A stretch of DNA of 35,570 nucleotides from a virus (taxonomy: Duplodnaviria > Caudoviricetes), in the IMG/VR virus record IMGVR_UViG_3300020045_020219, positions 1-35,570 of that record; one strand, written 5' to 3'. The notes under the pieces were generated by a model. That model searched no databases, was not told the origin of the DNA, and worked only from the letters and a program-made list of their open reading frames with translations. Shown piece after piece: positions 8,812 through 25,952 of this stretch. The position numbers and the translations under genes were made by a program. Positions within the stretch are counted from its first letter, which is position 1, and the number at the start of each line of letters is the position of its first letter.

Positions 8812-11800
8812 TCAAGAGTTCTTTGTTGAATTATTAAAAGTTTCAGCGAAAAATTTTATCCCATCTCCAAACAATTTAACATTTTCAGCAGACCGATTTC
8901 TTAACACATAAGAAGGATGAACACACCATATAACATTGGCTTTTACCTTTTCGATCCATTCCATTGTCCCTGATGCTTTTGTTATTCCTGCTTGCTTTCC
9001 GCTTAAGGTATAATAAGCAGAACCACCAAGAGCAAGGATCAATTTACAATCCATTGACTTTATTTCTTCAACCATCCATTTATGGAAACAGGTATCAATT
9101 TGTTCATGAGATGGGGTCCTGGAAATTTTAGGAAAACATTTTACCGTATTTCCAACATGAAGCATCCTTCTATTGATTTTATATTTCAATAATTCATCCC
9201 ATAACATTTCGCCAGGGTCACCAACAAAATTTTGACCTTTTTCATCGTCAATTTTCCCTGGATAATCCCCTATAACTAAAACATTATAAGTCCCTTCACT
9301 GGATAAAACAACTTGATATGCTTCTTTTCTTAAATCACATTCGTAGCAATCAAGAACTTTTTTATCTATAACAGCTTTCTTCTTAATAACATCGATTTTT
9401 GATATTGCAATAGAAGAACAACCTGAACCTATATCAAATTGAAAATATTCTTCATAGTTATCGGGTCGAGCTTTTATGTCAGGGTCAAAGGCTTTTATTT
9501 CAGATAATATTTTCTGTGTGCTTGTCTGGTTAACTGCTGTGTTCTGGACATTAAAAAATCCTTTTTTAGGTGCTTTCGGAGGTGACATATTAATACACTT
9601 TAAAGCTTCCTTTTCACCAATCCCTTTGATTTCAATAAAAGGCATGTATAAGTTATTATCTTTAACTATCCATTTATCCGCCTCAGAGATTCCTACTTTA
9701 GGGGTGACAACATACATTCCTTTCTTTTCTGCTTCCTCTATTAATTTACCTTTGTCCCCATCTTCACCATATGTTAAATAGGCACAGGTATATTCGGCAG
9801 GAAAATATAGTTTTGCCCAAGCAGTCCAGTAGCCAATCATAGCGTATTCAATAGAATGCGCCAAATTAAAGCCATACGAAGCCCATTCAAGCAACCCTTC
9901 CCAGAATTCTTCTGCTTGTTTTTGAGTCAAAGTATTTTTATTTCTGCAACCTTCTAAAAATTGAATTCTAAAAGGTTCAAATTCTTTTGGGTCTCTTTTC
10001 TTTCCAATAACCTTTCTTATTTTATCTGCATCAGCTCCTGAAAAACCTGCAAGGTCAGTCATAGCCTTCATCATTTGCTCTTGATAGACCATAACTCCAT
10101 AGGTATCTTTTGTTATTTCATCGTATATTTTATGGATGCTTTGCCATTTTTGTCCTTTCTTTCTTTTGACATATAAATCCGACATTCCGGATTCCTTCGG
10201 CCCTGGCCTTGCAATAGCAATTACTGCTGAAATATCTTCAATATTTTGAACTCCAGCTTCTATGCAAAACTTTGTGCAATCATATCCGGTTAATTGAAAA
10301 ATACCTGCTGTTTGTCCTTTTGAGATATAATTGTAAACTTCTGGATCGTTAAAAGGCAAAACGCTCCATTCAAATTTTTTGTTTGAAATAGGATAGGAAA
10401 GCCCTTCTATATCAGAATCATTTTCTTTTCCAAACCACCAACTACTTGACTCAGGATGAAAATACAAATACTCTCCATAATTTTTGAAAATCAGTCTTTT
10501 ACATTCATTCAAAACAGTTAAAGTACCAAGTTTCAAAACATCTATTTTTATTAAACCAGTATGTTCAGAATCTTCCATGTCCCAGTTAATAACTTTTTTA
10601 TCTTCTCTCAAGGTTAAATGACATCTATTTGTGTTTCTTAAATCGTCTCTTGAAACTATTAATCCAGCAGGATGTTGACCTTTTGCTTTAACCTGCCCTT
10701 CCAAATTACAACAATGTTCGAACTGTTCTGGGTATTTATTAGAAAATAATTTCCCTTCAACTGTTTCTAATGTATGTTTAAGAATTTCATCTTTATGGTC
10801 TCCAACAGTTATCGACTTTGCATATTCATCAATATCTTTTGAAGGTAGTTCGAAGGTACTGCTAACATCCCTTACAATGGCTCTAGCTTGCATTCTAATG
10901 AATGTATTTATTCCAGCTATGTTATAGCTACCATATTCCTTTTCAAGGTGTTCTCGGACAAGATAAGCCTTTTCTTTGTCGAAGTCGATGTCTATATCAG
11001 GGAAATCTATACGTTCGGGATTAATAAATCTTTCAAATAATGTTCCGTACTTCAAAGGATCAACTTCTGTAATGCCTAGCAAATAAGCTATGAGAGAGCC
11101 ACCTACCGATCCGCGACCAGGGCCGATTAGAATATCATTCTTTTTGCACCATTCAACCAATTCATAAATCACAAGAAAGTATCTAGCAAAATTTTTGTCT
11201 TTAATAATTTTGAGCTCATAAGAATATCTGTCCTCATAAGCTTTGTCCCATTTAACTCTTGAAACATGCTCAAAAAGATTGCTTTTACCGAAATGGTCAA
11301 GAATATCCGCAGAGGATTCGTTTCCGCCTTTTTCATATTTGGTTAAAGGAAGTTCGATATTCAATTTGGGAATTTTGAAATCTATCATATCGGAAATTTT
11401 ATTTGTATTACTCATCGCAATAGATATTTGTCTATCAGATAAAATTCCTTGTCTATTGAAAGCAATTCTTAACTCTCTTTCATCTTTCAGATGAAGACCT
11501 TGCACTTCAAATTTCCATCTATTAGGATCATTCCATTTTGCTCTTCTCTGAATTGCTAATAACACCTCTTGGGATTTAGCGTGTTCCATCAAAACATAAT
11601 GGCAGTCATTAGAGGCAACCAATGAAGCTTTTGAATTACCAAAAAGTTCAAGGCATAATTGGTTTGTTTTAATCTGTTGCTCTATTTTATGAGGCATAAC
11701 TTCAAGGAAAATGTTAGAAGAAAAGGCATTCAATAATTCATAGAATACTTCTTTGCCATTAGGCTGCCATAAAAAGGAACTTGTGCAGGCGGTTAAAATA

Positions 11801-12186
11801 ATCAACCCATCATTCATGTTATTCTTTAATGTTTTGAAATCAATTCTCGGTCGATTATAAAAACCTTCTATATTGGCAATTGTGAGCATATCAAGAAGAG
11901 ATTTCCAGCCTTTTTCATTCTTGACTAATATCGTAATATGCCCTCTTTTCTCTCCTTGATTTTTTATAGTTAAATCCGGGACAATATAAAGTTCAGAACC
12001 TATAATTGGTTTGATGTTTTCTTTAATACAAGTTCTTTGAAATTTAAGAGCACCATCTATATTGGCATGGTCGGTGATAGCAATTGCTTCCATTCCAATT
12101 TCTTTTGCTCTTTTAACATATTGTTCAGGAGAGCCCATACCATCAAGAGCGCTGAATTCAGTGTGATTATGAAGTGAAACATACAT
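8812..12186 (-). CDS. dnaE: DNA polymerase III alpha (PHP + Pol core + HhH) fused to a C-terminal family-4 UDG-like domain
   Basis: LHNHTEFS.LDG, AITDH, SNDCHY, GRGSVGGS, PDIDIDF, KIDVL, YQEQ, YGFN.AH, IKGIG; the last roughly 180 aa have C..C.L, GDYPG, FVG..G, NTVKC.P, LG, HPS. Confidence 0.93.
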   Translation of the reverse strand: MYVSLHNHTEFSALDGMGSPEQYVKRAKEIGMEAIAITDHANIDGALKFQRTCIKENIKPIIGSELYIVPDLTIKNQGEKRGHITILVKNEKGWKSLLDMLTIANIEGFYNRPRIDFKTLKNNMNDGLIILTACTSSFLWQPNGKEVFYELLNAFSSNIFLEVMPHKIEQQIKTNQLCLELFGNSKASLVASNDCHYVLMEHAKSQEVLLAIQRRAKWNDPNRWKFEVQGLHLKDERELRIAFNRQGILSDRQISIAMSNTNKISDMIDFKIPKLNIELPLTKYEKGGNESSADILDHFGKSNLFEHVSRVKWDKAYEDRYSYELKIIKDKNFARYFLVIYELVEWCKKNDILIGPGRGSVGGSLIAYLLGITEVDPLKYGTLFERFINPERIDFPDIDIDFDKEKAYLVREHLEKEYGSYNIAGINTFIRMQARAIVRDVSSTFELPSKDIDEYAKSITVGDHKDEILKHTLETVEGKLFSNKYPEQFEHCCNLEGQVKAKGQHPAGLIVSRDDLRNTNRCHLTLREDKKVINWDMEDSEHTGLIKIDVLKLGTLTVLNECKRLIFKNYGEYLYFHPESSSWWFGKENDSDIEGLSYPISNKKFEWSVLPFNDPEVYNYISKGQTAGIFQLTGYDCTKFCIEAGVQNIEDISAVIAIARPGPKESGMSDLYVKRKKGQKWQSIHKIYDEITKDTYGVMVYQEQMMKAMTDLAGFSGADADKIRKVIGKKRDPKEFEPFRIQFLEGCRNKNTLTQKQAEEFWEGLLEWASYGFNLAHSIEYAMIGYWTAWAKLYFPAEYTCAYLTYGEDGDKGKLIEEAEKKGMYVVTPKVGISEADKWIVKDNNLYMPFIEIKGIGEKEALKCINMSPPKAPKKGFFNVQNTAVNQTSTQKILSEIKAFDPDIKARPDNYEEYFQFDIGSGCSSIAISKIDVIKKKAVIDKKVLDCYECDLRKEAYQVVLSSEGTYNVLVIGDYPGKIDDEKGQNFVGDPGEMLWDELLKYKINRRMLHVGNTVKCFPKISRTPSHEQIDTCFHKWMVEEIKSMDCKLILALGGSAYYTLSGKQAGITKASGTMEWIEKVKANVIWCVHPSYVLRNRSAENVKLFGDGIKFFAETFNNSTKNS

Positions 12187-13220
12187 TATTTTAAATCCTC
12201 TATAATATTATTTTTTAATTCTTCCTTTGATGGTATATAATCAACATATCTAATAAATTTCCATCCAATATTTTCTAACTCTTTTTGTCTTTTATTATCG
12301 TATTCTTTATTTTGATGCCAATAAGAACCATCATATTCAATGGCAATCTTTAATTCAGGAATAGCTATATCAATTGAAAAATTTAATGAAGGATAATTTA
12401 AAATTGCTTGAGGATATAATTGTTTTATTAATTTTAAAAGTTCAACTTGGGGTTTGGAAGGGTTTTGATTAAAAGAAAGTGCATGGGCAGCACCTCCATT
12501 AAGCATTCTATTTCTTGTCTTCTCTATATTTTCTTTCCGACTAAAGGGATTATTATTTTTAAGTCTAAAACTTCTATGGGCAGCTATACATTTTTTACTA
12601 CAACAAAAATTTTCTTGATGTTCTAATGAATATTTTGTTGTTTTCATTATTTTTTTACAAATACAACATTTGACTTCAAAAATATTTTGTGATATCCCAC
12701 CCTTCCAATTATAATGATTTTCTCCTGATGTCTTTTCTTTGATTTCAGGCGAATTCCTTATTTTTTTTAATTTTTCTCTATATTCCTCACTTTGCATTAT
12801 ACGAAGATGTTTAGCTTTATGAATAGGATTTTTCAAAGGATGATTATTGCCTAAAAATTTAGCAACAATTTCTGGCCTTTTCATAGGATGATGATCTTCA
12901 AAAGACCATTTACCCATACAATATAAAGAACAAAAAAATTTAAAAGAAATTGAGTTTTTATAACTATTTAATTCAACTTTTTTAATTTTTCCACAATAAA
13001 AACATTTTACGAATATTGATCTATGATTGCCTTTAAAATCAATATTAATTATTTCCCTCTCAGGAGAGTTTCTTATACTTTTTATTTGTTCGTTTATCAT
13101 TTCATAATCCTCAAAAGAAAAACCTTGAGAGTGAACAAAGCTGGAAACAGCTCCTTCATACGTCGCCATATGAAGACTCTCAAGGTTTATTAAGTTATTA
13201 TTAAAGTTTTGCATTTCCAT
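12186..13220 (-). CDS. free-standing homing endonuclease-like protein (NUMOD3/Zn modules + Vsr/DUF559-like nuclease)
   Basis: FCS..C modules, GENHYNWKGG, DIAIPELKIAIEYDGSYWH...D..R...L...GW; start 13220 or 13229. Confidence 0.75.
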   Translation of the reverse strand: MEMQNFNNNLINLESLHMATYEGAVSSFVHSQGFSFEDYEMINEQIKSIRNSPEREIINIDFKGNHRSIFVKCFYCGKIKKVELNSYKNSISFKFFCSLYCMGKWSFEDHHPMKRPEIVAKFLGNNHPLKNPIHKAKHLRIMQSEEYREKLKKIRNSPEIKEKTSGENHYNWKGGISQNIFEVKCCICKKIMKTTKYSLEHQENFCCSKKCIAAHRSFRLKNNNPFSRKENIEKTRNRMLNGGAAHALSFNQNPSKPQVELLKLIKQLYPQAILNYPSLNFSIDIAIPELKIAIEYDGSYWHQNKEYDNKRQKELENIGWKFIRYVDYIPSKEELKNNIIEDLK

Positions 13221-13265
13221 ACTGTTCAACTATATTATCGGATTCTTTTGAGAATATTTAAAGGT

Positions 13266-13544
13266 TTATTTTAATTTCATTTTCTTACTTTTTATGGTAT
13301 AATAAATTAATAATCCAGTATAATAAGTATTCGTTAACATTATAGCGATTCCTCCTATAAAACTACACCATTGATTCAAGAAAGGATAGTAATATAAATT
13401 CCAAAAAGCCCACAATGTAAAATAAGAAATATGAACCCACGAAATGCCTTTAACTTTCTTATCTTTATATAATTTCAAGATACTAAATAAAATAAAAGGA
13501 GAGGCTAATAATTCAAAGGAGCCATTAATAATATCAGGAGTCAT
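13266..13544 (-). CDS. PQ-loop/SemiSWEET-like 3-TM membrane protein
   Basis: LKLYKDKKVKGIS loop and three hydrophobic helices. Confidence 0.65.
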   Translation of the reverse strand: MTPDIINGSFELLASPFILFSILKLYKDKKVKGISWVHISYFTLWAFWNLYYYPFLNQWCSFIGGIAIMLTNTYYTGLLIYYTIKSKKMKLK

Positions 13545-13694
13545 TTATTTTTCCTTATTGAACAAATCGCTTAGTAAGAAAATTGCTTTGATATAGCCAC
13601 GTTCTAAACCAAGAGAAATAAGCCCTGCTAAAAATCCGAGAGGAAAGAGACAGTAACAAAAAAAGACATATACAATTTTGATAAAAGTTTTCAT
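13545..13694 (-). CDS. small membrane protein (49 aa)
   Basis: Not in the track; ATGA overlap with the upstream gene; hydrophobic. Confidence 0.55.
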   Translation of the reverse strand: MKTFIKIVYVFFCYCLFPLGFLAGLISLGLERGYIKAIFLLSDLFNKEK

Positions 13695-14227: not shown

Positions 14228-14228
14228 T

Positions 14229-14970: not shown

Positions 14971-14990
14971 TTCTTTCTCCTTAAAAATAA

Positions 14991-15105
14991 ACTTGTGAGG
15001 TAGAAAATTCAATAAGGGATTATTAATTTCCCATTTTAACATATTATATAAAAAATATCAATTATGCCTCAGTCAAGAAAATTAATAAAAATCTACCTCA
15101 CAAGT
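14991..15105. repeat. 14-bp perfect inverted repeat enclosing promoter motif copy 3
   Basis: ACTTGTGAGGTAGA (14991-15004) / TCTACCTCACAAGT (15092-15105), 87-nt spacer. Confidence 0.85.
15042..15054 (-). promoter_or_regulatory. Repeated promoter-like motif (copy 3)
   Basis: Exact TTTTTATATAATA. Confidence 0.55.
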
Positions 15106-15107
15106 CC

Positions 15108-15128: not shown

Positions 15129-15130
15129 AC

Positions 15131-15204
15131 TGGCAGGGGCAGTAAGAATCGAACTCACTTAGACAGATCCAAAGTCTGTTGGCTAACCAATCACCCATGC
15201 CCCT
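15131..15204 (-). tRNA. tRNA-Gln (UUG) with encoded CCA
   Basis: Acceptor AGGGGCA/TGCCCCT-G-CCA; anticodon arm ACAGA-CT TTG GA-TCTGT; T arm GTGAG-TTCGATT-CTTAC; weak D stem. Confidence 0.88.
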
Positions 15205-15277
15205 AATTTTTAATCCCAACCAAATAACCGCATATTCAGATAAAGCCAAATGTAATGTTCCTTAATCGCTCAGCGAG

Positions 15278-16510
15278 TTATCTAGTTGGGTTATTTTTCT
15301 TCATTTCTAAATATTTTCCATAAGCTTCACTTTTCGGCTGTTGAAATCCTAAACCTTTACACCACCAATCGTTCCTAAGTAGAATTTTGCACATTCTTCT
15401 CCAAGAAGGAGCCCAATGTTTATTTTCTAAAACTCTTGGCGCTGCATCAGGGATTTCTTTAATATAGCCTCTTTCTTTCCATCCCTTTATGAAAACTTTA
15501 AATCTTTCAAGATAATGATCTCTTGTAATTTTTGGCATAGTTTTAAGAAGAAGGTTACAAAAACTTTTATATGTATGCCCTTCAGGAAGAGTTATTTTAT
15601 CATTTCCCATTATATTTCCTTTTTCTTGGATATACATTGCTCCAAAATTAGCTCCATTGACTCTTGAAACTAATTTATACCAAGACTCAGGTTCTAAGAT
15701 ATGATAGAGCCATAATCCTTTCTTTTGATCGTCTCCATAAGGTTGACACAACCTTTGATTCGCTATTGGGACCAAAGCTTTATACATCATTTCATATATA
15801 GAATTAAATATTTTATGAGGATTCAAAAAATGATATTTCCAAATATCAGAAACTTTCCAATCATATATCGGATAAATATTATAAAGATCGTCTAAAACTT
15901 TTGTTGTAAACCTTTTATTTTGAAAAGTTTCCTTTTTATAACTTGCTATAGTTCGAAATCTATTCAAGCTTTCATCAGCTCTTATTCCAACAAAACAAGC
16001 TGTTCTTTTATTATTATTTATGCTTTTATACCAATCTCCAAACAAAATTATAAATTCTTCAAATTCCATCCTTCTATTAAAAAAGGGGAAAAATTTTGAA
16101 TCAGAAATTACTCCAGGATATTTTGGCATTTCTCTTACCCAAAATTCTTTTTTATTTTCATCCCAGGGAGTCCAAGATGGTTCAAAGGCGCTAACTGAAT
16201 TTCTTAATGCCAAAGGTAAACAAACCCAATATAAATGAATATATTCTTTATAAAGTTCAAACATTTTTTGAGCATGACCTGATGTCGCTTTATACTGTGC
16301 TTCAAAATCAATTAATAAAATTCCAATTTTTCTTTTTCTTTTAATTGCTTCATCTACAACTAAATGAAACATTGTAGTGCTATCTTTTCCCCCGCTGAAA
16401 CTCAAATAAATAGATTCGAAATTATCAAAAACATACGATATTCTATCTTGCGCTGCTTCTAAAACATTTTTATTAATAAACCTTTTTAATTTATTATCTT
16501 TATAATCCAT
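15278..16510 (-). CDS. PAPS-reductase-like/DUF3440 protein (YbdN/IbrA family)
   Basis: SFSGGKDS PP-loop, GIRADESLNR, PIYDW...DIW, QRLCQPYG, RVNGANFG, PSWRR.C..LLRND. Confidence 0.9.
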   Translation of the reverse strand: MDYKDNKLKRFINKNVLEAAQDRISYVFDNFESIYLSFSGGKDSTTMFHLVVDEAIKRKRKIGILLIDFEAQYKATSGHAQKMFELYKEYIHLYWVCLPLALRNSVSAFEPSWTPWDENKKEFWVREMPKYPGVISDSKFFPFFNRRMEFEEFIILFGDWYKSINNNKRTACFVGIRADESLNRFRTIASYKKETFQNKRFTTKVLDDLYNIYPIYDWKVSDIWKYHFLNPHKIFNSIYEMMYKALVPIANQRLCQPYGDDQKKGLWLYHILEPESWYKLVSRVNGANFGAMYIQEKGNIMGNDKITLPEGHTYKSFCNLLLKTMPKITRDHYLERFKVFIKGWKERGYIKEIPDAAPRVLENKHWAPSWRRMCKILLRNDWWCKGLGFQQPKSEAYGKYLEMKKNNPTR

Positions 16511-16511
16511 T

Positions 16512-16934
16512 TTAATATAAATTTGGCTCCGTTTTAGATTGTGCTTCGTTCATAGTCAAAGGTCTTTCTCCATGTTTTTCTAACCAGATATTTAAATATT
16601 TTAACGCACTTTCATTTGCTTTGTTTTGTTGTTCTTCTGATAATCTATGGAATCCTACTCTAAAACAAGAGGGAATATGAAATCGATAAGCTAAGGCAGC
16701 TTGCCCTAGCCAAGCTATCCGATTCATTCTTTCATTAGTTAAATAATGTTCACAAGAATATTTCCATTCAGTAATAACCTTATTTAAAACTTCTTCAAAA
16801 AAATCAATATTTGTTAATAGATTAATATAACAAGAAACAGCTTCTTCCTTGGTCATTCCTTCTGGAGGATTGTCTTCATAAAACCCTGCTGGATAACATT
16901 CCCATTTTTCCCAAGTATGAAATATTCTATTCAC
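16512..16934 (-). CDS. conserved hypothetical protein between IbrB- and IbrA-like genes
   Basis: WEKWEC...GFY, W..SCEH.LTN..MNRIAWLGQAA. Confidence 0.75.
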   Translation of the reverse strand: MNRIFHTWEKWECYPAGFYEDNPPEGMTKEEAVSCYINLLTNIDFFEEVLNKVITEWKYSCEHYLTNERMNRIAWLGQAALAYRFHIPSCFRVGFHRLSEEQQNKANESALKYLNIWLEKHGERPLTMNEAQSKTEPNLY

Positions 16935-17727
16935 TTTCAGAGTCCTCTAAAACATTTCCATAAATTTCTTCATCATCAAATATTTCCGACTCCCAAGCTT
17001 GAGAAAAATCTACATTTCCAAACATTTCCAGTAACCCATTTATCTGGCATAACCTTAAAACTTCATCTGGTTCCATTCCCAATTCTTTACCGATTCTGTC
17101 GTTAGTCCAATTTCTTTTCCTTAATTCGATAACTATATCTTTCATTCCATCAACAGTATGCTTTCCTCTTGCTCTATTATGTCTTATTGTAGAGGCTATA
17201 CGATCGTTTTTATTTTCTCTTTCTGCATTGATAATAGATAAAGGAAGATATCCAAAAATTCTTTCTTTTATATTTGAGCATTCTTTACCTACTCTATTTC
17301 TATGAAAGCCGTCTACAACTTCAAAATTTTCTTCTTTACTCCAAGCAACTATAGGTTGAGTATATCCATCGCAATCTATAGAATGTTCAAGTAGTTTCAT
17401 TTCTGGAGGGGCGACTACATTGGGATTATAATCATTTGCTTTAATATTTTCTGATCTAACCCAAACAACACAATCAACAGGTTCATTCTTAAAAGGAGAA
17501 TTTGAATGCAACAGTTGTTTTATTCTATTTATTGTTTCTATCTTATCTTCAAGAGATAATGATTCTAATTCTTTAAAAAGTATTTCTGATTTTTGACAAA
17601 TTTCATTATCAATTTTTCCAATGCCTCCAAATCTATTCCGGTCTAATAAAGAAATAGATTTGGAGGGTTTTTCTATTTGCTCTTTTTCTTTTACTTGAAT
17701 TTTAAAGAATCCTGGTCTATCTTTCAT
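16927..17727 (-). CDS. ParB/Srx-like protein (YbdM/IbrB family)
   Basis: PVDCVVWV, ANDYNPN.VAPPEM.LL, DGYTQPIV, VVDGFHR, STIRHNRARG.H, I.KELGM..DEVLRL.Q. Confidence 0.9.
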   Translation of the reverse strand: MKDRPGFFKIQVKEKEQIEKPSKSISLLDRNRFGGIGKIDNEICQKSEILFKELESLSLEDKIETINRIKQLLHSNSPFKNEPVDCVVWVRSENIKANDYNPNVVAPPEMKLLEHSIDCDGYTQPIVAWSKEENFEVVDGFHRNRVGKECSNIKERIFGYLPLSIINAERENKNDRIASTIRHNRARGKHTVDGMKDIVIELRKRNWTNDRIGKELGMEPDEVLRLCQINGLLEMFGNVDFSQAWESEIFDDEEIYGNVLEDSESE

Positions 17728-17936: not shown

Positions 17937-18941
17937 TTACTCATTGATCAAACACACGGAATGCCTAAAATCATTACCTGCAAATAGGAGTATATTTTCT
18001 CCTATTATTACATCTGTTGAAAATTCAAGTATCTGAATCATATGTTCAGGGCTGACATCAAACTTCAATTCGTCTCCATCATAATCAGGAGCCGAAACGG
18101 GTTCTTTAAACCAGGCACCTTTGCCTTCTGAAAAGACATTGATAAATTTCTTTGCTATTTTTACTGTTACTTTGTCTTCATCTTTTGAAAGAATTGATTG
18201 GGCTCGGTTTAAAGCTCCCGATAAAGCCTTTGGAAGCTGTATCTTTCTCCCTTCAACATTTAGAAACTCTTCCAGAGAAGGATAATCATCAACGATAACC
18301 CGATGAGTAAAAACAACTCCATTTTCATCTTTGTAATGGGCACAGGATTCAGTCAAGGCATATTCAATAATTTTGAAGGCAGAAAGAAATGAAGCTATCT
18401 TTCTTGAAATCAAAAGTTTATTGTCTAATAGGCCTGTCATTTCTGATTTCAAGATTTTTTCTGAAATACGATAATTGTCAGAAGAAATAATTCGATCTTT
18501 TGCTACATATAAATTACACATAGAGCCATAAGACGAATCGTTCGCAGCGCTGAAAATACAAAATTTTAAGGCATCAATAAAGCCTTCTGGAAATTTATTC
18601 CATTCTTTTACCTGAGCAAGGCCAAGATCGGGAATTGTCTTTGGATCATAAGAAATCAGTGAGAATCCGGCTTTTCCTTCCGCCCCAACTATCAATTGGT
18701 CTTCTTCGAGAGAAAGAGAGATTTCGTCAACAGCAGATTTCTCAATGAGCTTTGTAAATTTCTCTTCTTGAATGGCCGCTATAAAATCGGTTTTCAACGG
18801 AACGGAGATAGAAATATTGTCTCCATAGCTTATAAGCTTTTCTCCGTCAAAGATTATAAGCCCTTTGAACTCAATAAGTTTTCCATCCGATATTGCTGGC
18901 TTTACTTTTTTAATTGCTTCCAATAATACTTGTTTCTTCAT
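17937..18941 (-). CDS. dnaN: DNA polymerase III beta-like sliding clamp
   Basis: 334 aa, three-domain pattern, LL.AI.KV, SSDNYRI (ATDG.RL-like), DYP linker, final F.H.V..I. Confidence 0.8.
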   Translation of the reverse strand: MKKQVLLEAIKKVKPAISDGKLIEFKGLIIFDGEKLISYGDNISISVPLKTDFIAAIQEEKFTKLIEKSAVDEISLSLEEDQLIVGAEGKAGFSLISYDPKTIPDLGLAQVKEWNKFPEGFIDALKFCIFSAANDSSYGSMCNLYVAKDRIISSDNYRISEKILKSEMTGLLDNKLLISRKIASFLSAFKIIEYALTESCAHYKDENGVVFTHRVIVDDYPSLEEFLNVEGRKIQLPKALSGALNRAQSILSKDEDKVTVKIAKKFINVFSEGKGAWFKEPVSAPDYDGDELKFDVSPEHMIQILEFSTDVIIGENILLFAGNDFRHSVCLINE

Positions 18942-18998: not shown

Positions 18999-19721
18999 TT
19001 ATTGCGAACTTAATACCTTTCTTACTTTGATAGGATTCAATCTATCTTTAAATATTTTCAAACTTTCTCTTCCTAAAACTCCCCCATCATTAACAAGTTT
19101 GTTTGCATTTATATAATATAAATATCTTAAATATTCTGGCAAAAAAGGAATATTTTTACATATACAATATCGATAATTAAGATACTTAAAATTTTCATCC
19201 CAAATATTTATTCCATAAATATCTTTAGATGATTCTCCGATTAGATAACTTTGACTTTTCCCTTCAAAAACATAATCAACTAATACATTTGCGTCTTCTA
19301 TATTTTCAAAATTATCAACCCATTCAGATAATAATTTTTCTTTTTTATTTTTTGAAAGATCATTACCAGAAAGATATGATAAATCTTCTTTAATTCTTTC
19401 CGGAAATTTTTTAGAATTCTTTCGGAAAGTCATCCACTTTTTTCCAACCATATTTAAAAAACTTTTGGGATCATAGATATATTCATAATCCAAAAAGTTT
19501 TTACCGGAGAATTCAGGAAAATCGCTCCAAAACTTTCCTCCAATAAATTCTCCTTTTAAAGAAATTTTTGGGAAAATCAATTGGGCATCTCCATAGATTG
19601 AAACAATATCGTTTTGAAGATCTATGATAAAATTACTTTTTTCAAAATATTCAACAGAACACCACCAATTCGGAGTTATGTTATATTTCTCTAGCAAATT
19701 TATATATTCAAAACTATTCAT
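18999..19721 (-). CDS. DUF2156/LPG-synthase C-terminal-like GNAT-fold transferase
   Basis: EYIY....F..M.GKKW..FRKN.KKF and VNDGG.LG.ESL..FK..LNP resemble the DYIY...L.GKK....RN and INRE.DLG..GL...K...P motifs of the family. Confidence 0.6.
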   Translation of the reverse strand: MNSFEYINLLEKYNITPNWWCSVEYFEKSNFIIDLQNDIVSIYGDAQLIFPKISLKGEFIGGKFWSDFPEFSGKNFLDYEYIYDPKSFLNMVGKKWMTFRKNSKKFPERIKEDLSYLSGNDLSKNKKEKLLSEWVDNFENIEDANVLVDYVFEGKSQSYLIGESSKDIYGINIWDENFKYLNYRYCICKNIPFLPEYLRYLYYINANKLVNDGGVLGRESLKIFKDRLNPIKVRKVLSSQ

Positions 19722-19869
19722 TATTCTTTAAAAAACCCTTTCCTTTTGGGAATGATTTTTGAGGGTTGACCACATTTTCTTTCTGGTTGTTCTTTTGGCT
19801 CTTCTCTGAGATTAATCTCTTGACTAAGTCCTTCGTTATTCGTCCTCCCTTCCTGCTCTTGCCTCCCAT
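19714..19869 (-). CDS. overprinted small basic protein (51 aa, MGGKSRKGGRITKDLVKRLI...KGKGFLKNNE)
   Basis: Not in the track; AGGAGG SD 6 nt before ATG; alternative frame inside the tail of 19721-20614. Confidence 0.6.
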   Translation of the reverse strand: MGGKSRKGGRITKDLVKRLISEKSQKNNQKENVVNPQKSFPKGKGFLKNNE

Positions 19870-20614
19870 CGTTTTCCTCCTGACTTATAATTTCTATGTC
19901 GCCAATTTCATCATAAAAGCAACAGGCCATAATCCCGACAACTTTAACGGGCGGAGTCCCTGGCCCTAATCCCATTTCTCCTTCTAACAAGAAATATTGA
20001 TTGCTTTCATTAAAATAAAAATGGACTTTATTATAATATATAAAAATAGACAAAAAATCATCAGTCCTTATTCCTATTGGGCCAAAATTTTTTGTTAAAT
20101 TCGGTTGAAGTCCTCTCATCCCTTCATTTTTTTGAATAATTTCATGTTTTCCCCCGCTGAAAATATCTCTTTGAATCATATAAAAAGTCTTATTTTTAAA
20201 GGATAATTCAATATGGGACAATTCATCTTTTAAAGAAGAAGAGATTGAATTTGAGAAAAAAATACTATCCTCACTATAATGGGTAAAGAATTTCTTAAAA
20301 AGATTATCTATTTCCTCAAATCCTCGACTTGCTTTACAACAAGTCTTTTTGATTGTATGATCTTTTTTTTCAATAGTAAAAACAGCCTGACCATTTTCTT
20401 CTTTGAAATTTTCGCTTATAAACTCAGTTGCGTTGAAACTTACTTCTTGGGCAAATTGAGGCTCGTTTTCTGGAAGAAAAAACCTCAACAATAAGGTGTT
20501 ATCTTTATTCAAAAGATAAATAACCCTTCCTTTGCAATAAATTTCATTTCTTAATCTTCCCGTATCTGAAAGTTTTTTAGCTCTTTCAAAAATTGTTTTA
20601 GTCATTTGGTTCAT
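19721..20614 (-). CDS. hypothetical beta-rich protein with low-complexity tail
   Basis: 297 aa, ATGA overlap with the radical SAM gene; ends KRKGFFKE. Confidence 0.75.
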   Translation of the reverse strand: MNQMTKTIFERAKKLSDTGRLRNEIYCKGRVIYLLNKDNTLLLRFFLPENEPQFAQEVSFNATEFISENFKEENGQAVFTIEKKDHTIKKTCCKASRGFEEIDNLFKKFFTHYSEDSIFFSNSISSSLKDELSHIELSFKNKTFYMIQRDIFSGGKHEIIQKNEGMRGLQPNLTKNFGPIGIRTDDFLSIFIYYNKVHFYFNESNQYFLLEGEMGLGPGTPPVKVVGIMACCFYDEIGDIEIISQEENDGRQEQEGRTNNEGLSQEINLREEPKEQPERKCGQPSKIIPKRKGFFKE

Positions 20615-22011
20615 AAGCATCCCTCCAAAATATTCATTCTAAAATCGTCATTTTTAAGATATTGCCATTCTACATTACCTTGAGTCCCTGATGGAAGAAT
20701 TCCTTGGCCATACCCCATAGAATAGGCCTCAAGTCCTCCATTTTCCATCTGCCAAAGTTGATGAACTTCTTCTTTTAATTTGTCAGAAAGAAATCCTCCG
20801 TTATTATTCACAAAATTTTCAAATTCTTTCCAATTGACTAATTTTCCCTGCTGCCGTTGGATATATCTTATTGCTCCAACCGTCGACCCATAATTAAATT
20901 TAGAATCAGAAAACCAATCTCCAACCTGGCAACATATATCATCATCGTTATAAGGGACATTACCAAGGTCAAAGGTTGAACATTTAAAGCCTTTTTCTTT
21001 GAACATCTCCATAAACTTATTTAATAACAAGGAGCCAATAGCTTGACTTTCGCTTGTTAAAAGAAACATTCTGTTATAGTCATATCCTTGTCGAATATAA
21101 TTTTCCTTTATCCCAGCATTATTGACTGAAAAACTATAGGTATCAAAGGTCATATGTCTTACTCCTGCTTCATAAACTTCGTCTATATATTTTTTTACTG
21201 CATCAGGATGGTCATTGATAAAGGCCATATATGGTTCAATTCTAGCAACAACTCTTATCCCTGCTGCTGACATTTTTCTCATAGCTTCAAGACGTCTGGA
21301 ATAGCTTGGAGCGCCTGGTTCTAATTTTTTTAATAAATTTTCATCAGATGATATTAAAGTCACATGAACCGCTGCCTTTGCTGGATTGTCTGTTAAGGCT
21401 TTTAAATAAGCCTCATCAGCAACCAAATCTGATTTTGTGTTTATCATTACTGGATAATTTGAAGATGCAAGAAATTTTAATAATTCAAGGGAGACTCCTC
21501 TTTTCTTTTCTACAAGATGAAAATCTTCAAAACGGATACCGATGCGAATGGGCATTTTATTGTTAATAGCTCTTTGAATTTCTGAAGAGGTAGGTTTGCC
21601 AATGTTATCAAAGTATTTTGATAATTCAGGTTTAAAAAATTCAGGATTGCATGATCTCAATTTAACGGCTTTTCCATTATCAAAGAAATTAGGATAAAGC
21701 TTTCCTCTAAAATAATCGGCAAAGCAATAACGGCATTTAAATGGGCATAGAATTCCGTCCCAAACATCAATATTTAAACACATTGGGCAAGCTTGGGCAC
21801 GTAGAGAAACTTCAATAAAATTACTAAATTCTTCTGTGTTTAATAACCTTTCGTTTTTTACCCATTCCCCGGAAGAAAGATTGAATTGATGATAATTTGT
21901 TTTTCTTCCTTTTTCTTTTATCGCAGATTGAAGTTTTTGATTAGTCCCTATCAAAACTTTTTGTCTTGGAATAAGCTTTGCCACTTCTTTTCTTAACTCA
22001 TAATAATTCAT
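20611..22011 (-). CDS. radical SAM enzyme, SPL-like (rSAM-1)
   Basis: CPFKCRYC (CxxxCxxC), INTKS, LEPGAPS..RRL, ARIEP, C-terminal CC. Confidence 0.88.
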   Translation of the reverse strand: MNYYELRKEVAKLIPRQKVLIGTNQKLQSAIKEKGRKTNYHQFNLSSGEWVKNERLLNTEEFSNFIEVSLRAQACPMCLNIDVWDGILCPFKCRYCFADYFRGKLYPNFFDNGKAVKLRSCNPEFFKPELSKYFDNIGKPTSSEIQRAINNKMPIRIGIRFEDFHLVEKKRGVSLELLKFLASSNYPVMINTKSDLVADEAYLKALTDNPAKAAVHVTLISSDENLLKKLEPGAPSYSRRLEAMRKMSAAGIRVVARIEPYMAFINDHPDAVKKYIDEVYEAGVRHMTFDTYSFSVNNAGIKENYIRQGYDYNRMFLLTSESQAIGSLLLNKFMEMFKEKGFKCSTFDLGNVPYNDDDICCQVGDWFSDSKFNYGSTVGAIRYIQRQQGKLVNWKEFENFVNNNGGFLSDKLKEEVHQLWQMENGGLEAYSMGYGQGILPSGTQGNVEWQYLKNDDFRMNILEGCL

Positions 22012-22837
22012 TTGGTGCACTCCCAATATTCCAGAACAAGACTTTTTTATCCTGAAAGATTTGTATATTTTCTGTTAACCATTGCCATGCCTTAAGATCA
22101 TAATAAGGATGAGAAGGGAAAGGACAGAATGCTTTTGAAGGCTTAGTATATTCCCATTTAGAATCTATCAAAAATAAATTTTGGCCTCTATACCCCCACC
22201 TTTGAGTTTTTTCTATTATTCTTTTCTTTTTTAACTCTGCATTTCGTGTCCAACCAAGAATTCCATATACTTCTTTTTTAAGATCAATTCCATTTAAAAT
22301 ACCTGAAGTTATTGTGCCGCTACCGACATTAATAACAACACAATCGAAATCTATTTCCTTTTGAACTTTTTGAATAATTTTAGAAGTTTCTATTGTAGTC
22401 TCTTTTAATTGTAAACCCAAAGGCAACATAATAGAATTTTCATAATTTTGATTTAAGATTTTTTTGGATAAATAAAAATTGACTTTAGTTCTTCCTGCCT
22501 TTAACTGTATTATATCTGCTCCAAATTTATTCCATTGCTCTTTATGAAATCTTAAATATTTTAAATCCTCTCTTTCTGAGACATAAACAGGTTCAAAGAT
22601 AACCGCTTTTAAACCTATTTCTTTACAAGCCCAGGAGACTCCCCACCCTGCCATGCTAATTGAGGTTTCAGTATATCCCACTGTTTTAAACCCTTGATCT
22701 GCTAAAGATAACAAATAAGGAAATAAACCTCTTACTTTGGAAAAAGTCGGCCCTGGAAAAGGACAAGCAAAATCTTCTCTTTTAACCAAAACTTCCTTAT
22801 CATTAATCAAATATTTTTCTATCGGCGTTTCATTCAA
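21998..22837 (-). CDS. fold-type-II PLP enzyme (ACC deaminase/D-cysteine desulfhydrase-like)
   Basis: TPIE, VKRED, SKVRG (Schiff-base Lys), VGSGT...G, PYYD.KAW, LFWNIG. Confidence 0.85.
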   Translation of the reverse strand: MNETPIEKYLINDKEVLVKREDFACPFPGPTFSKVRGLFPYLLSLADQGFKTVGYTETSISMAGWGVSWACKEIGLKAVIFEPVYVSEREDLKYLRFHKEQWNKFGADIIQLKAGRTKVNFYLSKKILNQNYENSIMLPLGLQLKETTIETSKIIQKVQKEIDFDCVVINVGSGTITSGILNGIDLKKEVYGILGWTRNAELKKKRIIEKTQRWGYRGQNLFLIDSKWEYTKPSKAFCPFPSHPYYDLKAWQWLTENIQIFQDKKVLFWNIGSAPNELL

Positions 22838-23583
22838 AATAGAAAACCTCCATCTTTGTGAATTATAGAAATAGGTTCTATATCAGGGGTAAAGTATTCA
22901 ATAAATTCTCCTTTCTTTTCTGATTTTTTTAAAAATAGCAAAGCACAAGCATTAGTTTTAAAAAAATAAACCCCTTTTATGTCAAAACCAAATAATCTCC
23001 AAAAAATGTCTTGACATAATTCATAGTATTGTTCCCATGTTGCTAATCTATATCCCTTTAAATTCTTTTCCCCAAATTTTTTACCAAAACAAAAAGAATC
23101 CGCAATTATCATACATTTAGAGCATTCAAAAAATTTTAATAATACTTTATACCAAAAGTAAATTTGATTTAAAGTAAAATTATTGAAATCAAGCATTGTT
23201 AAATCGAAAGTTTCTTTACAATTAAAATCAAAAACATCTAAATTATAAATTTTTTCTTTGTGTTCAGGGAAATTTTTTATTAAAATATCATAACATCCCT
23301 TATCCAAATCGTTTAAATACATTATTTGAGGGTTTAAATATTTTTTGGCGATAGAAGCAGTTAAACCAGTTCCTCCAAAACAGTCCAAATAAGTTCGAAT
23401 CCTTTCTTCAAGAAAATCTTTTCTTTTCATAATCGCTTTGAAGGCTCCTATTTCACTTTCAATATCTTTTTTATGTTTACTTATAAAATTTTTTTGAGCA
23501 GAAAGTTTTTCTATTTTACCTTCATTAAAATCACAATTTTTACCAAGATCAACAATAATATTAGAATCAAAAATTATTTTCAT
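22834..23583 (-). CDS. Rossmann-fold SAM-dependent transferase, atypical
   Basis: YLDCFGGTG motif I, LNDLD, NLDVF, DLTMLDFNNF at the motif IV position. Confidence 0.65.
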   Translation of the reverse strand: MKIIFDSNIIVDLGKNCDFNEGKIEKLSAQKNFISKHKKDIESEIGAFKAIMKRKDFLEERIRTYLDCFGGTGLTASIAKKYLNPQIMYLNDLDKGCYDILIKNFPEHKEKIYNLDVFDFNCKETFDLTMLDFNNFTLNQIYFWYKVLLKFFECSKCMIIADSFCFGKKFGEKNLKGYRLATWEQYYELCQDIFWRLFGFDIKGVYFFKTNACALLFLKKSEKKGEFIEYFTPDIEPISIIHKDGGFLF

Positions 23584-24656
23584 ATTAAAAATCCCCTTTT
23601 CTTCTTTGGTAAAGAAATTTCTGGGATATCTTTCATTGTATAAAATCCTTTAGAATCTCCGGTTAAAATTTTTCTTCCTTCTTCAAAATCTCCAATTCCG
23701 TCCCAAGTAGAAGATAATATTTCTTCGACTTCCATTTTAGGGTTTTGTTGAAGAATTCTTTTCCATGTATGAGTATTGAACGTCATAGGATTAGAAACAT
23801 CAACTCCACAACAAGTATTTGCTTTTTGAAAATATGATCCTGTATTAACAAAATCAGGGCACCCAAGAATAATATCATATTTTTTTGCTAAATCAATTAA
23901 TTTTTGTTGAATAGGTTTCCAATTTTCATCTTGATTTCCCTCCCAAATCGCCATTATATCAAGTCCAATATCCAATAACCTTTTGGCAACAAAATCATTA
24001 AAATGAAAATTATAAATATTATATCGATTAATTCCTTCTGATTTCAGCCTTTTCAACATATCCTCAAATTGTTCAACAGTATGCCAACCGGGGATAAAAG
24101 GCTCTCCATTAACAGCTACCTGCATACCCTCTCTTTTTAAAAGAGCTATATGAGTAAATCTATGGCTTATGGGTGTTGTTCTTTGTCTTTCGAGAACTTC
24201 CCAATCCTTTTCCACCCCACAACTAATAATAGGCTGAACTATTCCAAAATTTTTACAGGAAACAATATCATCAAAATAATCCATCATTATTTCTGTAACC
24301 ATTGTTTGAATAACAAAAGGCCATTCTAATTTTTTCAAAATTTTAATACATTGTTGAGAAATTCTATATTCTCTTTCTGATTTTTGAAATGGATCTGTTT
24401 TGTTCCCGAACCTCAAAACTTTCTTTTTCTTAATTGCATGAGCTAATGAAGTCTTTGGAGAAGAATTTTTTAAACCATTAACGAGTTTAGATTCTAACTC
24501 ATTTGGATCAATAGGATTTAAACCATTATTCCAAATATGGTTAAGTCTTCTCAAATAACAATGCCAGCAATCATTAAGGCAATCTCCATATGAATCAAGA
24601 GAAAAACAGAGGGGACAATATAAACTGTCCCCTCTTATGGAAAGCCCATGAGACAT
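23580..24656 (-). CDS. radical SAM enzyme, SPL-like (rSAM-2)
   Basis: CPL..SLDSYG.CLNDCWHCY, RFG.KTDPFQ..E, LE..T....R, EPFIP, TCCG. Confidence 0.88.
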   Translation of the reverse strand: MSHGLSIRGDSLYCPLCFSLDSYGDCLNDCWHCYLRRLNHIWNNGLNPIDPNELESKLVNGLKNSSPKTSLAHAIKKKKVLRFGNKTDPFQKSEREYRISQQCIKILKKLEWPFVIQTMVTEIMMDYFDDIVSCKNFGIVQPIISCGVEKDWEVLERQRTTPISHRFTHIALLKREGMQVAVNGEPFIPGWHTVEQFEDMLKRLKSEGINRYNIYNFHFNDFVAKRLLDIGLDIMAIWEGNQDENWKPIQQKLIDLAKKYDIILGCPDFVNTGSYFQKANTCCGVDVSNPMTFNTHTWKRILQQNPKMEVEEILSSTWDGIGDFEEGRKILTGDSKGFYTMKDIPEISLPKKKRGFLI

Positions 24657-24657
24657 T

Positions 24658-25239
24658 TTATTTGGCTACTTTAAAGCCAGAATTTTTAATTTCTTCAAAA
24701 ACTTTTGAAACGATATTGAAGGCCCATTTTGTTTCATTCGGATTTGAAGTTCCTCCTGCGGAGGCATATTCTTTATCGATAAGAGAAAGAATTGATTCTT
24801 TGGTTTCTTCTTTGCCAAGAAGAAAAAGAAAAACGTCTGTTGTGATTTCAATACGACCCTTCCCGACTTTGAGCTTATTCGGAGGATTCTTGGAAATCTT
24901 CTTTTCTGAAGTTTCCTTTTTCTTTTCCGGGGATTCTTCTTTTATTATTGGAGGGAAAACTTCCTTCAATCTTTTTGCTGTATCAGGCGAAATTGCTCTT
25001 ATCGCTTCAACTGTTTCTTTCTGAAGCAAAGGAATATCTCCTGATTGAAGAAGTTCATACTTGCCTTCTCCATTCTTGAATTCGCATATTCCTTTTACCT
25101 CTGAGATTATTGCTCCAGTAAAATCATCTTCATTGGTAAAATCTGCTTCTGAAAAGGTGCTACCTATTGCTGGTTCAAGTTGAAGAATTTTGTTTAAATC
25201 TGCCATAGTTGCTATTAAAATTGCTTTTGTTAAATCCAT
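24658..25239 (-). CDS. hypothetical protein, first gene after promoter motif copy 4
   Basis: 193 aa, AGGAG SD, Lys/Glu-rich linker. Confidence 0.75.
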   Translation of the reverse strand: MDLTKAILIATMADLNKILQLEPAIGSTFSEADFTNEDDFTGAIISEVKGICEFKNGEGKYELLQSGDIPLLQKETVEAIRAISPDTAKRLKEVFPPIIKEESPEKKKETSEKKISKNPPNKLKVGKGRIEITTDVFLFLLGKEETKESILSLIDKEYASAGGTSNPNETKWAFNIVSKVFEEIKNSGFKVAK

Positions 25240-25270
25240 ATAAATGTCTCCTTTAAAATTTATGCATTGA

Positions 25271-25311
25271 TATTTTATTATATAAAAAATTACTTTTTAT
25301 ATAATAAAATA
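25271..25311. promoter_or_regulatory. 18-bp perfect palindrome made of two back-to-back promoter motifs
   Basis: TATTTTATTATATAAAAA-attac-TTTTTATATAATAAAATA; motif on minus at 25276-25288 and on plus at 25294-25306. Confidence 0.75.
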
Positions 25312-25952
25312 ATAAAAGAATTAAAAATATGAAGCCCTAATTCTGGTTCAACACAATTCCTTAATGTTTTTATTTTATCTATTCCTTTATAATTATTAAT
25401 ATTAAATTGTTTAAATTGTGTTAATTTTTCAATGCCACCATAATGATTTCTAGTCTTGATATCATAATTAGGAATGTAAAAATTTGACCAAAAATAATGA
25501 TTTCCTCTTTCTTGAGGGAATATCAGGGGGGCATACCATGATTTTACATTTTCTACTACATAATGGCCCTTATAATATCCTTTTAAAAAAAGGATTTCTT
25601 CATAAAGTTTCATATCAGGATAAACTATTTTATTTTTTGCTTTTCCATTTGTAAAAAGTTTATTCATTTTGCTATGACTTTGACATGGCGGACTTGACCA
25701 AATAAAATCAAATTCTTTAAAATGATCTAATAAATATTGATGAGCATCAGCAATAATAACCTTATCATTTGGGAAAAAATCCTGATATATTTTAGCAATA
25801 TTAGGATTTAATTCCACAGCTATTATTTCATGTTCGTTTCCCCAGAGTTTTCTATTTCCACCAATACCACAATATAGGTTTGCTATTCTTAATTTTTTAT
25901 TAGTTTTAATAAGATTTGGAATTTTATTTATTTCAAAAAATCCTTTTCTCAT
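25290..25952 (-). CDS. DNA (cytosine-5) methyltransferase, short phage type
   Basis: NLYCGIGG, SPPCQ, VENV, R..YFW, RNCV; ATGA overlap with the helicase. Confidence 0.88.
   Translation of the reverse strand: MRKGFFEINKIPNLIKTNKKLRIANLYCGIGGNRKLWGNEHEIIAVELNPNIAKIYQDFFPNDKVIIADAHQYLLDHFKEFDFIWSSPPCQSHSKMNKLFTNGKAKNKIVYPDMKLYEEILFLKGYYKGHYVVENVKSWYAPLIFPQERGNHYFWSNFYIPNYDIKTRNHYGGIEKLTQFKQFNINNYKGIDKIKTLRNCVEPELGLHIFNSFIILLYKK

What the first reader, a model, noticed from the sequence alone, without database searches (positions are those of the whole stretch)
9550..25952. Shared basic-Gly-Phe-(Phe/Leu) peptide in DnaE and modification proteins: candidate phage clamp-docking motif
Seen: DnaE linker PKKGFFNV; IbrB-like N-terminus MKDRPGFFKI; 19721 protein C-terminus KRKGFFKE; overprinted ORF KGKGFLK; SAM transferase C-terminus KDGGFLF; rSAM-2 C-terminus KKKRGFLI; C5 MTase N-terminus MRKGFFEI. 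All lie at termini or in a linker. Known: clamp partners bind through short peptides ending in hydrophobic pairs (QLxLF, PIP box). Inference: the phage clamp recruits polymerase and modifiers for co-replicative modification of phage DNA. Caveat: K, G and F codons are common in this AT-rich DNA.
Basis: partly seen in the sequence, partly recalled or inferred. Interest (0 to 1): 0.8.

Follow-up and report, generated by a model that had tools for sequence, protein, structure and literature searches.

The report
Phage clamp-docking Gly-Phe-Phe peptide
Phages that carry their own DNA-replication sliding clamp put a short Gly-Phe-Phe-type peptide on three unrelated kinds of DNA polymerase, on DNA-modifying enzymes and on an overlooked 51-residue protein, and this peptide likely docks them on the phage clamp so that new phage DNA would be modified at or just behind the replication fork.

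Summary
All seven peptides are present. GF[FL] lies near a terminus 7 times in 49 ORFs (shuffle mean 0.5; pattern chosen post hoc). Held-out relatives support the motif. GFF is kept in a variable linker of 82 of 102 parsed DnaE homologs. It opens 45 of 51 unrelated family-A polymerases from clamp-bearing loci, and G[FL]F opens four B-like polymerases beside a phage clamp. Relatives of the C5 methyltransferase from phages without this clamp end in canonical QxxLF-like tails (22 of 71; N-terminal GF[FL] 0). DNA-acting DpdA carries the tail (17 of 34); soluble Que enzymes do not (0 of 87). ORF 17937 is a DnaN-like clamp whose Gln-binding subsite has drifted. Corrections: the 19721 tail and the 'overprinted ORF' share nucleotides, and the conserved one is a real 51-aa microprotein. 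Protein 19721 is a second, PCNA-like clamp fold. Two C-terminal copies double as the next gene's Shine-Dalgarno site. Binding is untested (complex prediction unavailable). Verdict: a new variant of the beta-clamp-binding motif; co-replicative modification has a T4 precedent. The scan noted this motif and this cassette before on other phage DNA (e1-5969754, e1-5727402).

The parts
8812..12186 (-). DnaE (PHP, NTPase, finger) fused to a family-4 UDG-like domain; HhH cut after its first helix and followed by a variable linker
9553..9567 (-). KKGFF motif (K874-F878) in the DnaE linker; the best-conserved copy
   Evidence: 82 of 102 parsed homologs; F877 and F878 in 90% or more of 51 aligned
15278..16510 (-). 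IbrA-like PAPS-reductase/DUF3440 protein; no motif
16512..16934 (-). IbrA/B-associated 140-aa protein ending EPNLY; fused IbrB relatives end in Q-x-[DEN]-[ILV]-Y
16927..17727 (-). IbrB/ParB-like protein with a roughly 35-40 aa N-terminal extension starting MKDRPGFF (GFF at 17712-17704)
   Evidence: 0 of 36 homolog rows have GF[FL], 6 of 36 have N-terminal x-L-F such as MDLF
17937..18941 (-). Phage three-domain DnaN-like beta clamp; predicted receptor
   Evidence: pLDDT 95; TM 0.81-0.87 to beta clamps; pocket mapping
18999..19721 (-). GNAT/LPG_synthase_C-like (DUF2156-type) protein of the cassette; no motif
   Evidence: weak Pfam match; 0 of 15 homologs with the motif
19714..19869 (-). Conserved 51-aa microprotein MGGKSRK...KGFLKNNE (the 'overprinted ORF'); GFL at 19737-19729; predicted tether
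   Evidence: present in 15 of 15 cassette loci examined; hydrophobic anchor in 14 of 14 homologs and 9 of 10 held-out homologs
19876..19881 (-). Shine-Dalgarno AGGAGG of the microprotein
19721..20614 (-). Second, two-domain clamp-fold protein (PCNA/9-1-1/gp45-like); residues 235-297 are a low-confidence tail over the microprotein, ending KRKGFFKE (GFF at 19738-19730)
   Evidence: (Z 14-15, about 200-215 aligned)
20611..22011 (-). Radical SAM enzyme 1 of the cassette; no terminal motif
21998..22837 (-). PLP-dependent (PALP) enzyme; its TTG start overlaps the SAM-transferase stop
22834..23583 (-).
23580..24656 (-). Radical SAM enzyme 2 ending KKKRGFLI (23594-23583), which doubles as the next gene's Shine-Dalgarno site
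25290..25952 (-). C5 cytosine methyltransferase with a 20-aa N-terminal extension starting MRKGFF (25943-25935) and no QxxLF tail

Best explanation
G-F-[F/L], with its spaced form G-F-x-L, is a conserved short peptide of phages that encode their own DnaN-like clamp, and it likely docks its carriers in that clamp's hydrophobic pocket. Shown: the motif is kept at protein level in flexible positions of unrelated polymerases and DNA-acting enzymes; it occurs where relatives carry QxxLF; ORF 17937 folds as a beta clamp. Inferred: the two hydrophobic residues fill subsite I as the LF or LxL of a canonical clamp-binding motif does, and the Gln half has become dispensable as the clamp lost His175 and the Met362-Pro-Met-Arg365 end. 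Inferred: polymerase, methyltransferases and DpdA share the clamp as a tool belt, so nascent DNA would be modified at or just behind the fork (about 0.5). Inferred, weaker: in the rSAM cassette the 51-aa microprotein would act as a tether, binding the modification complex with its invariant N-terminal half and a clamp with its hydrophobic tail (about 0.4).
For: DnaE: GFF in 82 of 102 parsed homologs, 14-31 residues after the HhH turn, flanks unconserved; one homolog has QMGLW in that slot. In the DnaE-UDG clade 14 of 17 records hold the clamp; 13 of those 14 show GFF (one not parsed), and the 3 without a clamp show none. DnaEs lacking the UDG domain keep (G)FF (L086, L091, L100, L103). UDG-exo-PolA N-termini: GFF in 45 of 51, with all four Gly and both Phe codons used. 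GFF is the most enriched N-terminal 3-mer (48 against 1.8). Cultured Vibrio phage R01 PolA starts MGFF beside its clamp; three UDG-PolAs with no clamp annotated nearby lack it. B-like polymerases of 9g, SLUR76, Iggy and RHph_I36 start G[FL]FW; two with no clamp nearby do not. C5 MTase relatives: QxxLF-like tail in 22 of 71 (in-tail shuffle mean 7.1, maximum 16), N-terminal GF[FL] 0; 0 of 50 of their records hold the clamp. DpdA tails 17 of 34 and 40 of 68, against QueC/D/E/F and FolE 0 of 87. Motifs also occur where the next gene has its own Shine-Dalgarno site (L005, L013, L016, L017, L028). The closest relatives put it on unrelated methyltransferases and a GNAT (L542, L543). Clamp pocket: D173 (60 of 62), P242 (58), L155 (59) and R176 (49) kept; His175 mostly Tyr/Phe; M362/P363/R365 not kept. 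LF alone can bind and Gln is not essential (PMC11139829, passages).
Against: No binding data of any kind. Whole related genomes show only 0-3 terminal GF[FL] each. Most PolA and DpdA counts come from one homologous family each, so they are not independent events. The three clamp-negative DnaE records are 7-66% complete. Only 1 of 19 rSAM, 0 of 15 GNAT and 0 of 6 PALP homologs carry a C-terminal motif. In E. coli DnaE a G-G-Y-F of the intact HhH lies at about the same distance after the HhH turn, while its internal clamp motif (QADMF, residue 920) lies about 60 residues further on, so the DnaE copy may descend from the HhH rather than from the clamp motif. Two of six B-like polymerases beside a clamp (Ab26, Suba) lack N-terminal GFF and end in SFF or QPTLF. 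In held-out microproteins the strict adjacent pair is present in only 4 of 10 (144 of 5000 shuffles reach this); 9 of 10 needs the spaced form. In T4 the alpha-GT-gp45 contact is not the main determinant of modification level (PMC13216743, passages).
Confidence: 0.72

Rival explanations
1. The C-terminal copies are a by-product of translational coupling: the next gene's Shine-Dalgarno site, T-rich spacer and ATGA or TTGA overlap read as Gly-Phe-x-Leu/Ile in the upstream frame.
For: Applies to 22848 and 23594. In L542 an unrelated methyltransferase ends RGFIF over the same PALP start. 32 of 46 C-terminal carriers in clamp-bearing loci overlap the next start.
Against: Cannot explain DnaE, N-terminal or microprotein copies. 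Overlapped ORFs carry the motif in 32 of 805 cases in clamp-bearing loci against 2 of 455 in clamp-negative loci. It persists with a separate Shine-Dalgarno site, and Gly is often GGT or GGC.
Confidence: 0.35
2. The motif binds something other than the 17937 clamp: the second clamp-fold protein 19721, the host beta clamp, or another replisome hub such as the helicase or loader.
For: Protein 19721 has a clamp fold. LF alone binds bacterial clamps. 9g-type DpdA tails are canonical. The clamp, loader, SSB and helicase genes travel together, so co-occurrence cannot single out the clamp.
Against: The second clamp was found in only 16 loci against 114 with the main clamp, while GFF is on polymerases throughout. 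GFF is absent from clamp-less C5 MTase and PolA relatives, which depend on host factors.
Confidence: 0.15
3. The copies are unrelated: an intramolecular packing relic of the HhH in DnaE, an N-terminal structural element of the UDG-PolA, and chance elsewhere in AT-rich DNA.
For: E. coli and clamp-negative DnaEs have G-x-F at a similar place. The PolA motif sits a near-constant 19-21 residues before the UDG CxxC. Several single copies are in unrelated proteins, one a neck protein.
Against: The same tripeptide on family A, B-like and C polymerases only where a phage clamp is nearby, variable spacing in DnaE, retention without UDG, and exchange with QxxLF in MTase, DpdA and IbrB slots.
Confidence: 0.1
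4. The motif begins a MinD-like membrane-targeting helix that tethers replication to the membrane (resemblance recalled, from no call).
For: Basic residues followed by GF[FL] resemble the start of such helices (recalled).
Against: Only two hydrophobic residues are conserved, with no further amphipathic periodicity; many copies end 0-2 residues after the pair; soluble pathway enzymes lack it.
Confidence: 0.03

Closest known systems
Bacterial beta-clamp-binding motif, Q-phi-x-[LM]-[FL] and Q-phi-x-[LM]-x-[FL] (PMC11139829, passages)
   Same: Short peptide at termini or linkers of polymerases and DNA-acting enzymes; adjacent and spaced hydrophobic anchors; a DnaN-fold partner; occupies slots where relatives have QxxLF.
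   Different: No conserved Gln or aliphatic second residue; a conserved Gly before the anchor; Phe preferred at the first anchor position; often N-terminal; basic rather than acidic flanks; the presumed receptor is phage-encoded with an altered subsite II.
T4 gp45 partners: LDFL of gp33/gp55 (PMC9690074, passages) and alpha-glucosyltransferase binding to gp45 (PMC13216743, passages)
   Same: A phage clamp shared between replication and other DNA transactions, including a DNA-modifying enzyme.
   Different: gp45 is a two-domain trimer; here the main clamp is a three-domain DnaN type, the motif differs, and it is on three polymerase families and many modifier types.
PCNA PIP box Qxx[IL]xxFF and DNMT1-PCNA coupling (PMC9690074, passages)
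   Same: FF anchor; a methyltransferase tethered to a clamp for action on new DNA.
   Different: No Q-x-x-aliphatic part; different clamp family for the main clamp.
SP15/SPO1-like UDG-fused phage family-A polymerases (bioRxiv 10.1101/2025.03.26.645540, passages)
   Same: UDG-exonuclease-PolA architecture as in the related clamp-bearing loci.
   Different: Those use built-in inserts for processivity; 'GFF' does not occur in the main text; SPO1 and LysYB1 polymerases lack the motif.

Membership tests
Canonical beta-clamp-binding motif | Gln at position 1 and aliphatic residue at position 2 | tested here: not met
   No conserved Gln before GFF in 82 DnaE copies; none in the window's copies.
Canonical beta-clamp-binding motif | Hydrophobic anchor [LM][FL] or [LM]x[FL] | tested here: met
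   FF, FL, LF, LL and FxL or LxL forms; the first anchor is usually Phe rather than Leu/Met.
Canonical beta-clamp-binding motif | Located at a terminus or flexible linker of DNA-acting proteins | tested here: met
Canonical beta-clamp-binding motif | Binds the pocket between domains II and III of a DnaN clamp | not tested
DnaN beta clamp (ORF 17937) | Three-domain clamp fold homologous to DnaN | tested here: met
   Profile hits to solved beta clamps down to E 9e-22; Foldseek TM 0.81-0.87.
DnaN beta clamp (ORF 17937) | Conserved pocket residues His175, Met362, Pro363, Met364, Arg365 | tested here: not met
   Window has Y157, C330, L331, I332, N333; the clade has mostly Y/F, A/C, L and variable residues (sequence alignment).
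DnaN beta clamp (ORF 17937) | Dimeric ring that confers processivity | not testable with these tools
   Only a monomer was modelled.
PCNA/gp45-type two-domain clamp (ORF 19721) | Two-domain clamp fold | tested here: met
   Z 14-15 to 9-1-1, PCNA and gp45, rmsd 3.1-4.6 over about 200-215 residues; Atlas agrees.
PCNA/gp45-type two-domain clamp (ORF 19721) | Trimeric ring loaded on DNA | not tested
   No oligomer model could be made.
PIP box | Qxx[ILM]xxFF | tested here: not met
   No conserved residues at the upstream positions.

The most novel reading that the evidence does not exclude
This phage lineage runs a partly orthogonal clamp system. Its remodelled DnaN pocket reads Gly-Phe-Phe better than host QLxLF, newly acquired modifiers join by gaining the tag, and a 51-aa microprotein tethers an undescribed radical-SAM/PLP/aminoacyl-transfer DNA hypermodification machine, built around a second PCNA-like clamp, to the replisome.
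Probability: 0.25. Interest if true: 0.8.

Novelty: new variant of a known kind. Interest (0 to 1): 0.62.

Why it matters
If it binds, this is a Gln-less clamp-binding motif shared by family A, B-like and C polymerases, and an example of a motif changing together with its pocket. It would make a standing question directly testable: how phages modify new DNA before host nucleases reach it. Cultured phages that carry the motif (E. coli phage 9g and relatives, Vibrio phage R01/MAR10) allow the test now. The tag could also flag which unknown phage proteins act on DNA, and an orthogonal clamp-tag pair would be a useful tool.

Tried and rejected
Complex prediction of clamp plus DnaE 860-892 was not available, so there is no structural verdict on binding. 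A single-sequence clamp search of viral contigs found nothing. The SAM transferase returned only itself in the protein database; its two homologs come from fetched loci. Whole-proteome enrichment in 8 related genomes was weak, so I rejected a genome-wide tag. I first read the 19721 tail as a motif that had moved from its internal G-phi-phi loop; one search showed the tail overlaps the microprotein, so I dropped that as unproven. I rejected binding to the UDG domain in cis: the motif is present without UDG and absent with UDG. A DpdA scan meant as a clamp-negative control returned almost only clamp-bearing loci (68 of 70); four cultured DpdAs served instead, and two of those phages encode a clamp of their own. 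The 9g clamp scan returned only 9 close copies, which I did not analyse. Dropped rows: 18 of 120 DnaE homologs not parsed (many show GFF by eye); 30 of 80 DnaE loci and 30 of 80 MTase loci were not searched for the clamp; 68 of 80 pattern hits had no clamp nearby and were set aside as unrelated. ORFs in related loci came from my own simple caller, so some starts may be wrong. Nine paper searches showed no description of this motif in their listings; the library lacks most subscription papers and I read no supplements.
Full report
Setting. The window is a 35,570-base virus record holding a phage replication block: RecA, SSB, clamp loader, DnaE-UDG, clamp, DnaB and a 5'-3' exonuclease, with modification genes between DnaB and DnaE.

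Observation. All seven peptides are present. GF[FL] occurs 10 times in 49 ORFs (shuffle mean 4.6), 7 near a terminus (mean 0.52, 0 of 5000). The pattern was post hoc, so I tested it in other genomes. Two problems are visible in the DNA. The copies at 19738 and 19737 are one run of bases in two frames. The copies at 22848 and 23594 are also the ribosome-binding sites of the overlapped next genes.

The clamp. ORF 17937 models at pLDDT 95 and matches solved beta clamps by profile (E 9e-22) and by fold (TM 0.81-0.87). Aligned to E. coli DnaN, 62 clade clamps keep L155 (59), D173 (60), R176 (49) and P242 (58). His175 becomes Tyr or Phe in 46, and M362/P363/M364/R365 are not kept. By PMC11139829 (passages) the first set lines subsite I, which takes the LF anchor, and the second lines subsite II, which takes the Gln; LF can bind alone. 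This mapping is by sequence alignment only.

DnaE. Among 120 homologs, 102 were parsed and 82 have GFF 14-31 residues after the HhH turn, with unconserved flanks; most others have FF, LF, YF or similar, and one has QMGLW. Of 17 records of this DnaE-UDG clade, 14 hold the clamp; 13 show GFF and one was not parsed. The three without a clamp show no GFF, and two of them have an ordinary-looking HhH; they are only 7-66% complete. None of 33 more distant DnaE phage records had the clamp. DnaEs without UDG keep the motif. Against this, E. coli DnaE has G-G-Y-F at a like distance in its HhH, and its internal clamp motif lies at residue 920, further on. The DnaE copy may be an exapted HhH relic.

Other polymerases. 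Most of 80 clamp-bearing viral loci encode a UDG-exonuclease-PolA instead of DnaE. Of 51 dereplicated N-terminal subunits, 45 begin with GFF, using all four Gly and both Phe codons, so selection is on the peptide. Cultured Vibrio phage R01 PolA begins MGFF and Edwardsiella phage ZHS PolA begins MSFF, each directly after its clamp gene. SPO1, LysYB1 and a spring phage have UDG-PolA with no clamp annotated in the fetched stretch and lack the motif. A third family, the B-like polymerases (weak Pfam match) of 9g, SLUR76, Iggy and RHph_I36, begins with G[FL]FW beside a clamp gene. Ab26 and Suba have clamps but end in SFF and QPTLF instead; JS26 and LS06, with no clamp nearby, have neither.

Modifiers. 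Relatives of the C5 methyltransferase come from phages in which the clamp was not found (0 of 50 records, 0 of 22 near-complete). Of 71 full-length ones, 22 end in a QxxLF-like tail (in-tail shuffle mean 7.1, maximum 16) and none starts with GF[FL]. The window's copy has no such tail and starts MRKGFF on an extension with no alternative ATG, GTG or TTG start. IbrB relatives never have GF[FL] (0 of 36), but 6 have N-terminal xLF and fused forms end in Q-x-[DEN]-[ILV]-Y. DpdA-like enzymes of the clade end in G-phi-phi or G-phi-x-phi in 17 of 34 and, in a second partly overlapping set, 40 of 68; QueC, QueD, QueE, QueF-like and FolE do so in 0 of 87. Four DpdAs of cultured phages end in QDLF, QMELL, QNRLF and QELF. 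In the closest relatives (clamp 50-60% identical), unrelated N6/N4 methyltransferases start with TGFF or MKGFF and a GNAT ends KGFNL. Against: rSAM 1 of 19, GNAT 0 of 15 and PALP 0 of 6, and only 0-3 terminal GF[FL] per related genome.

Shine-Dalgarno control. C-terminal motifs occur in 32 of 805 overlapped and 14 of 852 non-overlapped ORFs in clamp-bearing loci, against 2 of 455 and 5 of 570 in clamp-negative loci; many carriers are DpdA, so these are not independent. Overlap alone does not create the motif, but it may account for the window's 22848 and 23594 copies; an unrelated methyltransferase ends RGFIF over the same PALP start in L542.

The overprinted ORF and 19721. The 'overprinted ORF' is a real gene: 19869-19714, 51 aa, with AGGAGG upstream. 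It lies between 19721 and the GNAT in 15 of 15 cassette loci examined. Its first 20 or so residues are nearly invariant, then comes a variable basic linker, then a hydrophobic pair in 14 of 14 homologs (GFF, GLL, NLF, PLF, TLF; shuffle mean 2.5). In 10 held-out homologs, 4 have the adjacent pair and 9 the adjacent or spaced form (0 of 5000 shuffles). Protein 19721 is a two-domain clamp fold (Z 14-15 to 9-1-1, PCNA and gp45), in a fixed order rSAM2-(MTase)-(PALP or AKR)-rSAM1-19721-microprotein-GNAT-clamp. Its GFF tail is low-confidence sequence running over the microprotein; among 14 homologs only the window and L001 end in GF[FL]. I count it as a likely by-product.

Mechanism. Shown: conservation, placement, exchange with QxxLF, the clamp fold and pocket drift. 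Inferred: docking in subsite I of the phage clamp (0.72); co-replicative modification by a tool belt (about 0.5); the microprotein as tether (about 0.4). A strictly private code is not shown, since 9g pairs GFF with QDLF.

What is known. The motif works like a beta-clamp-binding motif but fails its Gln criterion. Clamp-coupled modification is known for T4 alpha-GT and gp45 (PMC13216743, passages) and for DNMT1 and PCNA (PMC9690074, passages). A preprint on UDG-PolA phages has no 'GFF' in its main text (passages), and a jumbo-phage survey does not describe it in its clamp passages (PMC7824862). Nine searches showed no description in their listings; supplements were not read. Earlier scan notes report the motif on a 115-kb phage and the cassette with its extra clamp; I saw both after my own tests of those points and do not count them as support.

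Verdict. A real, conserved motif; a new variant of a known kind; binding untested. Interest 0.62.

Noticed in passing
window 18999-24656: Fixed cassette of two radical SAM enzymes, a PALP (or AKR/DAO) enzyme, a GNAT-like transferase, a second clamp-fold protein and a microprotein, directly upstream of the clamp, where other clade members have DpdA and Que genes. Candidate DNA hypermodification pathway.
   Followed up: partly
window 19714-19869 (-): Conserved 51-aa microprotein with no Pfam or PHROG hit; all 12 loci with the second clamp also held the main clamp.
   Followed up: yes
window 19721-20614, residues about 161-170: Exposed low-confidence loop with an invariant Gly followed by FF, LL, MF or LI in 12 of 14 homologs; degenerate in the window and L001.
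   Followed up: partly
window 415-1172 (+) and 1450-2495 (-): The PD-(D/E)xK resolvase gene and part of the next gene occur twice in inverted orientation with near-identical proteins; a possible inverted duplication or assembly artefact.
   Followed up: no
window 17600-17630: Inside the IbrB-like N-terminal extension, GGAGG is followed 9 bases later by ATT at about the place where homologs start; possibly the relic of the ancestral start.
   Followed up: no
window 15278-17727: IbrA/IbrB-like set; fused relatives end in Q-x-[DEN]-[ILV]-Y and several start MDLF, which suggests that this module generally docks on a clamp.
   Followed up: partly
L392, L395, L397, L398, L412, L413, L417: DpdA of cultured phages ends in x-E/D/R-L-F-type tails and its gene often lies beside a phage clamp gene (9g, MS1, Iggy, SLUR76), which suggests clamp-coupled 7-deazaguanine insertion.
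   Followed up: partly
window 30414-30635 (-) and 35112-35342 (+): Two small ORFs of unknown function with terminal KGFL and DGFF; no family hits.
   Followed up: no
window 27481-28293: The RlaP-like nucleotidyltransferase loses family similarity after residue 188; possibly frameshifted.
   Followed up: no
window about 15130-15210 (-): A tRNA-like stretch between IbrA and ORF 14671, seen by eye; not scanned.
   Followed up: no
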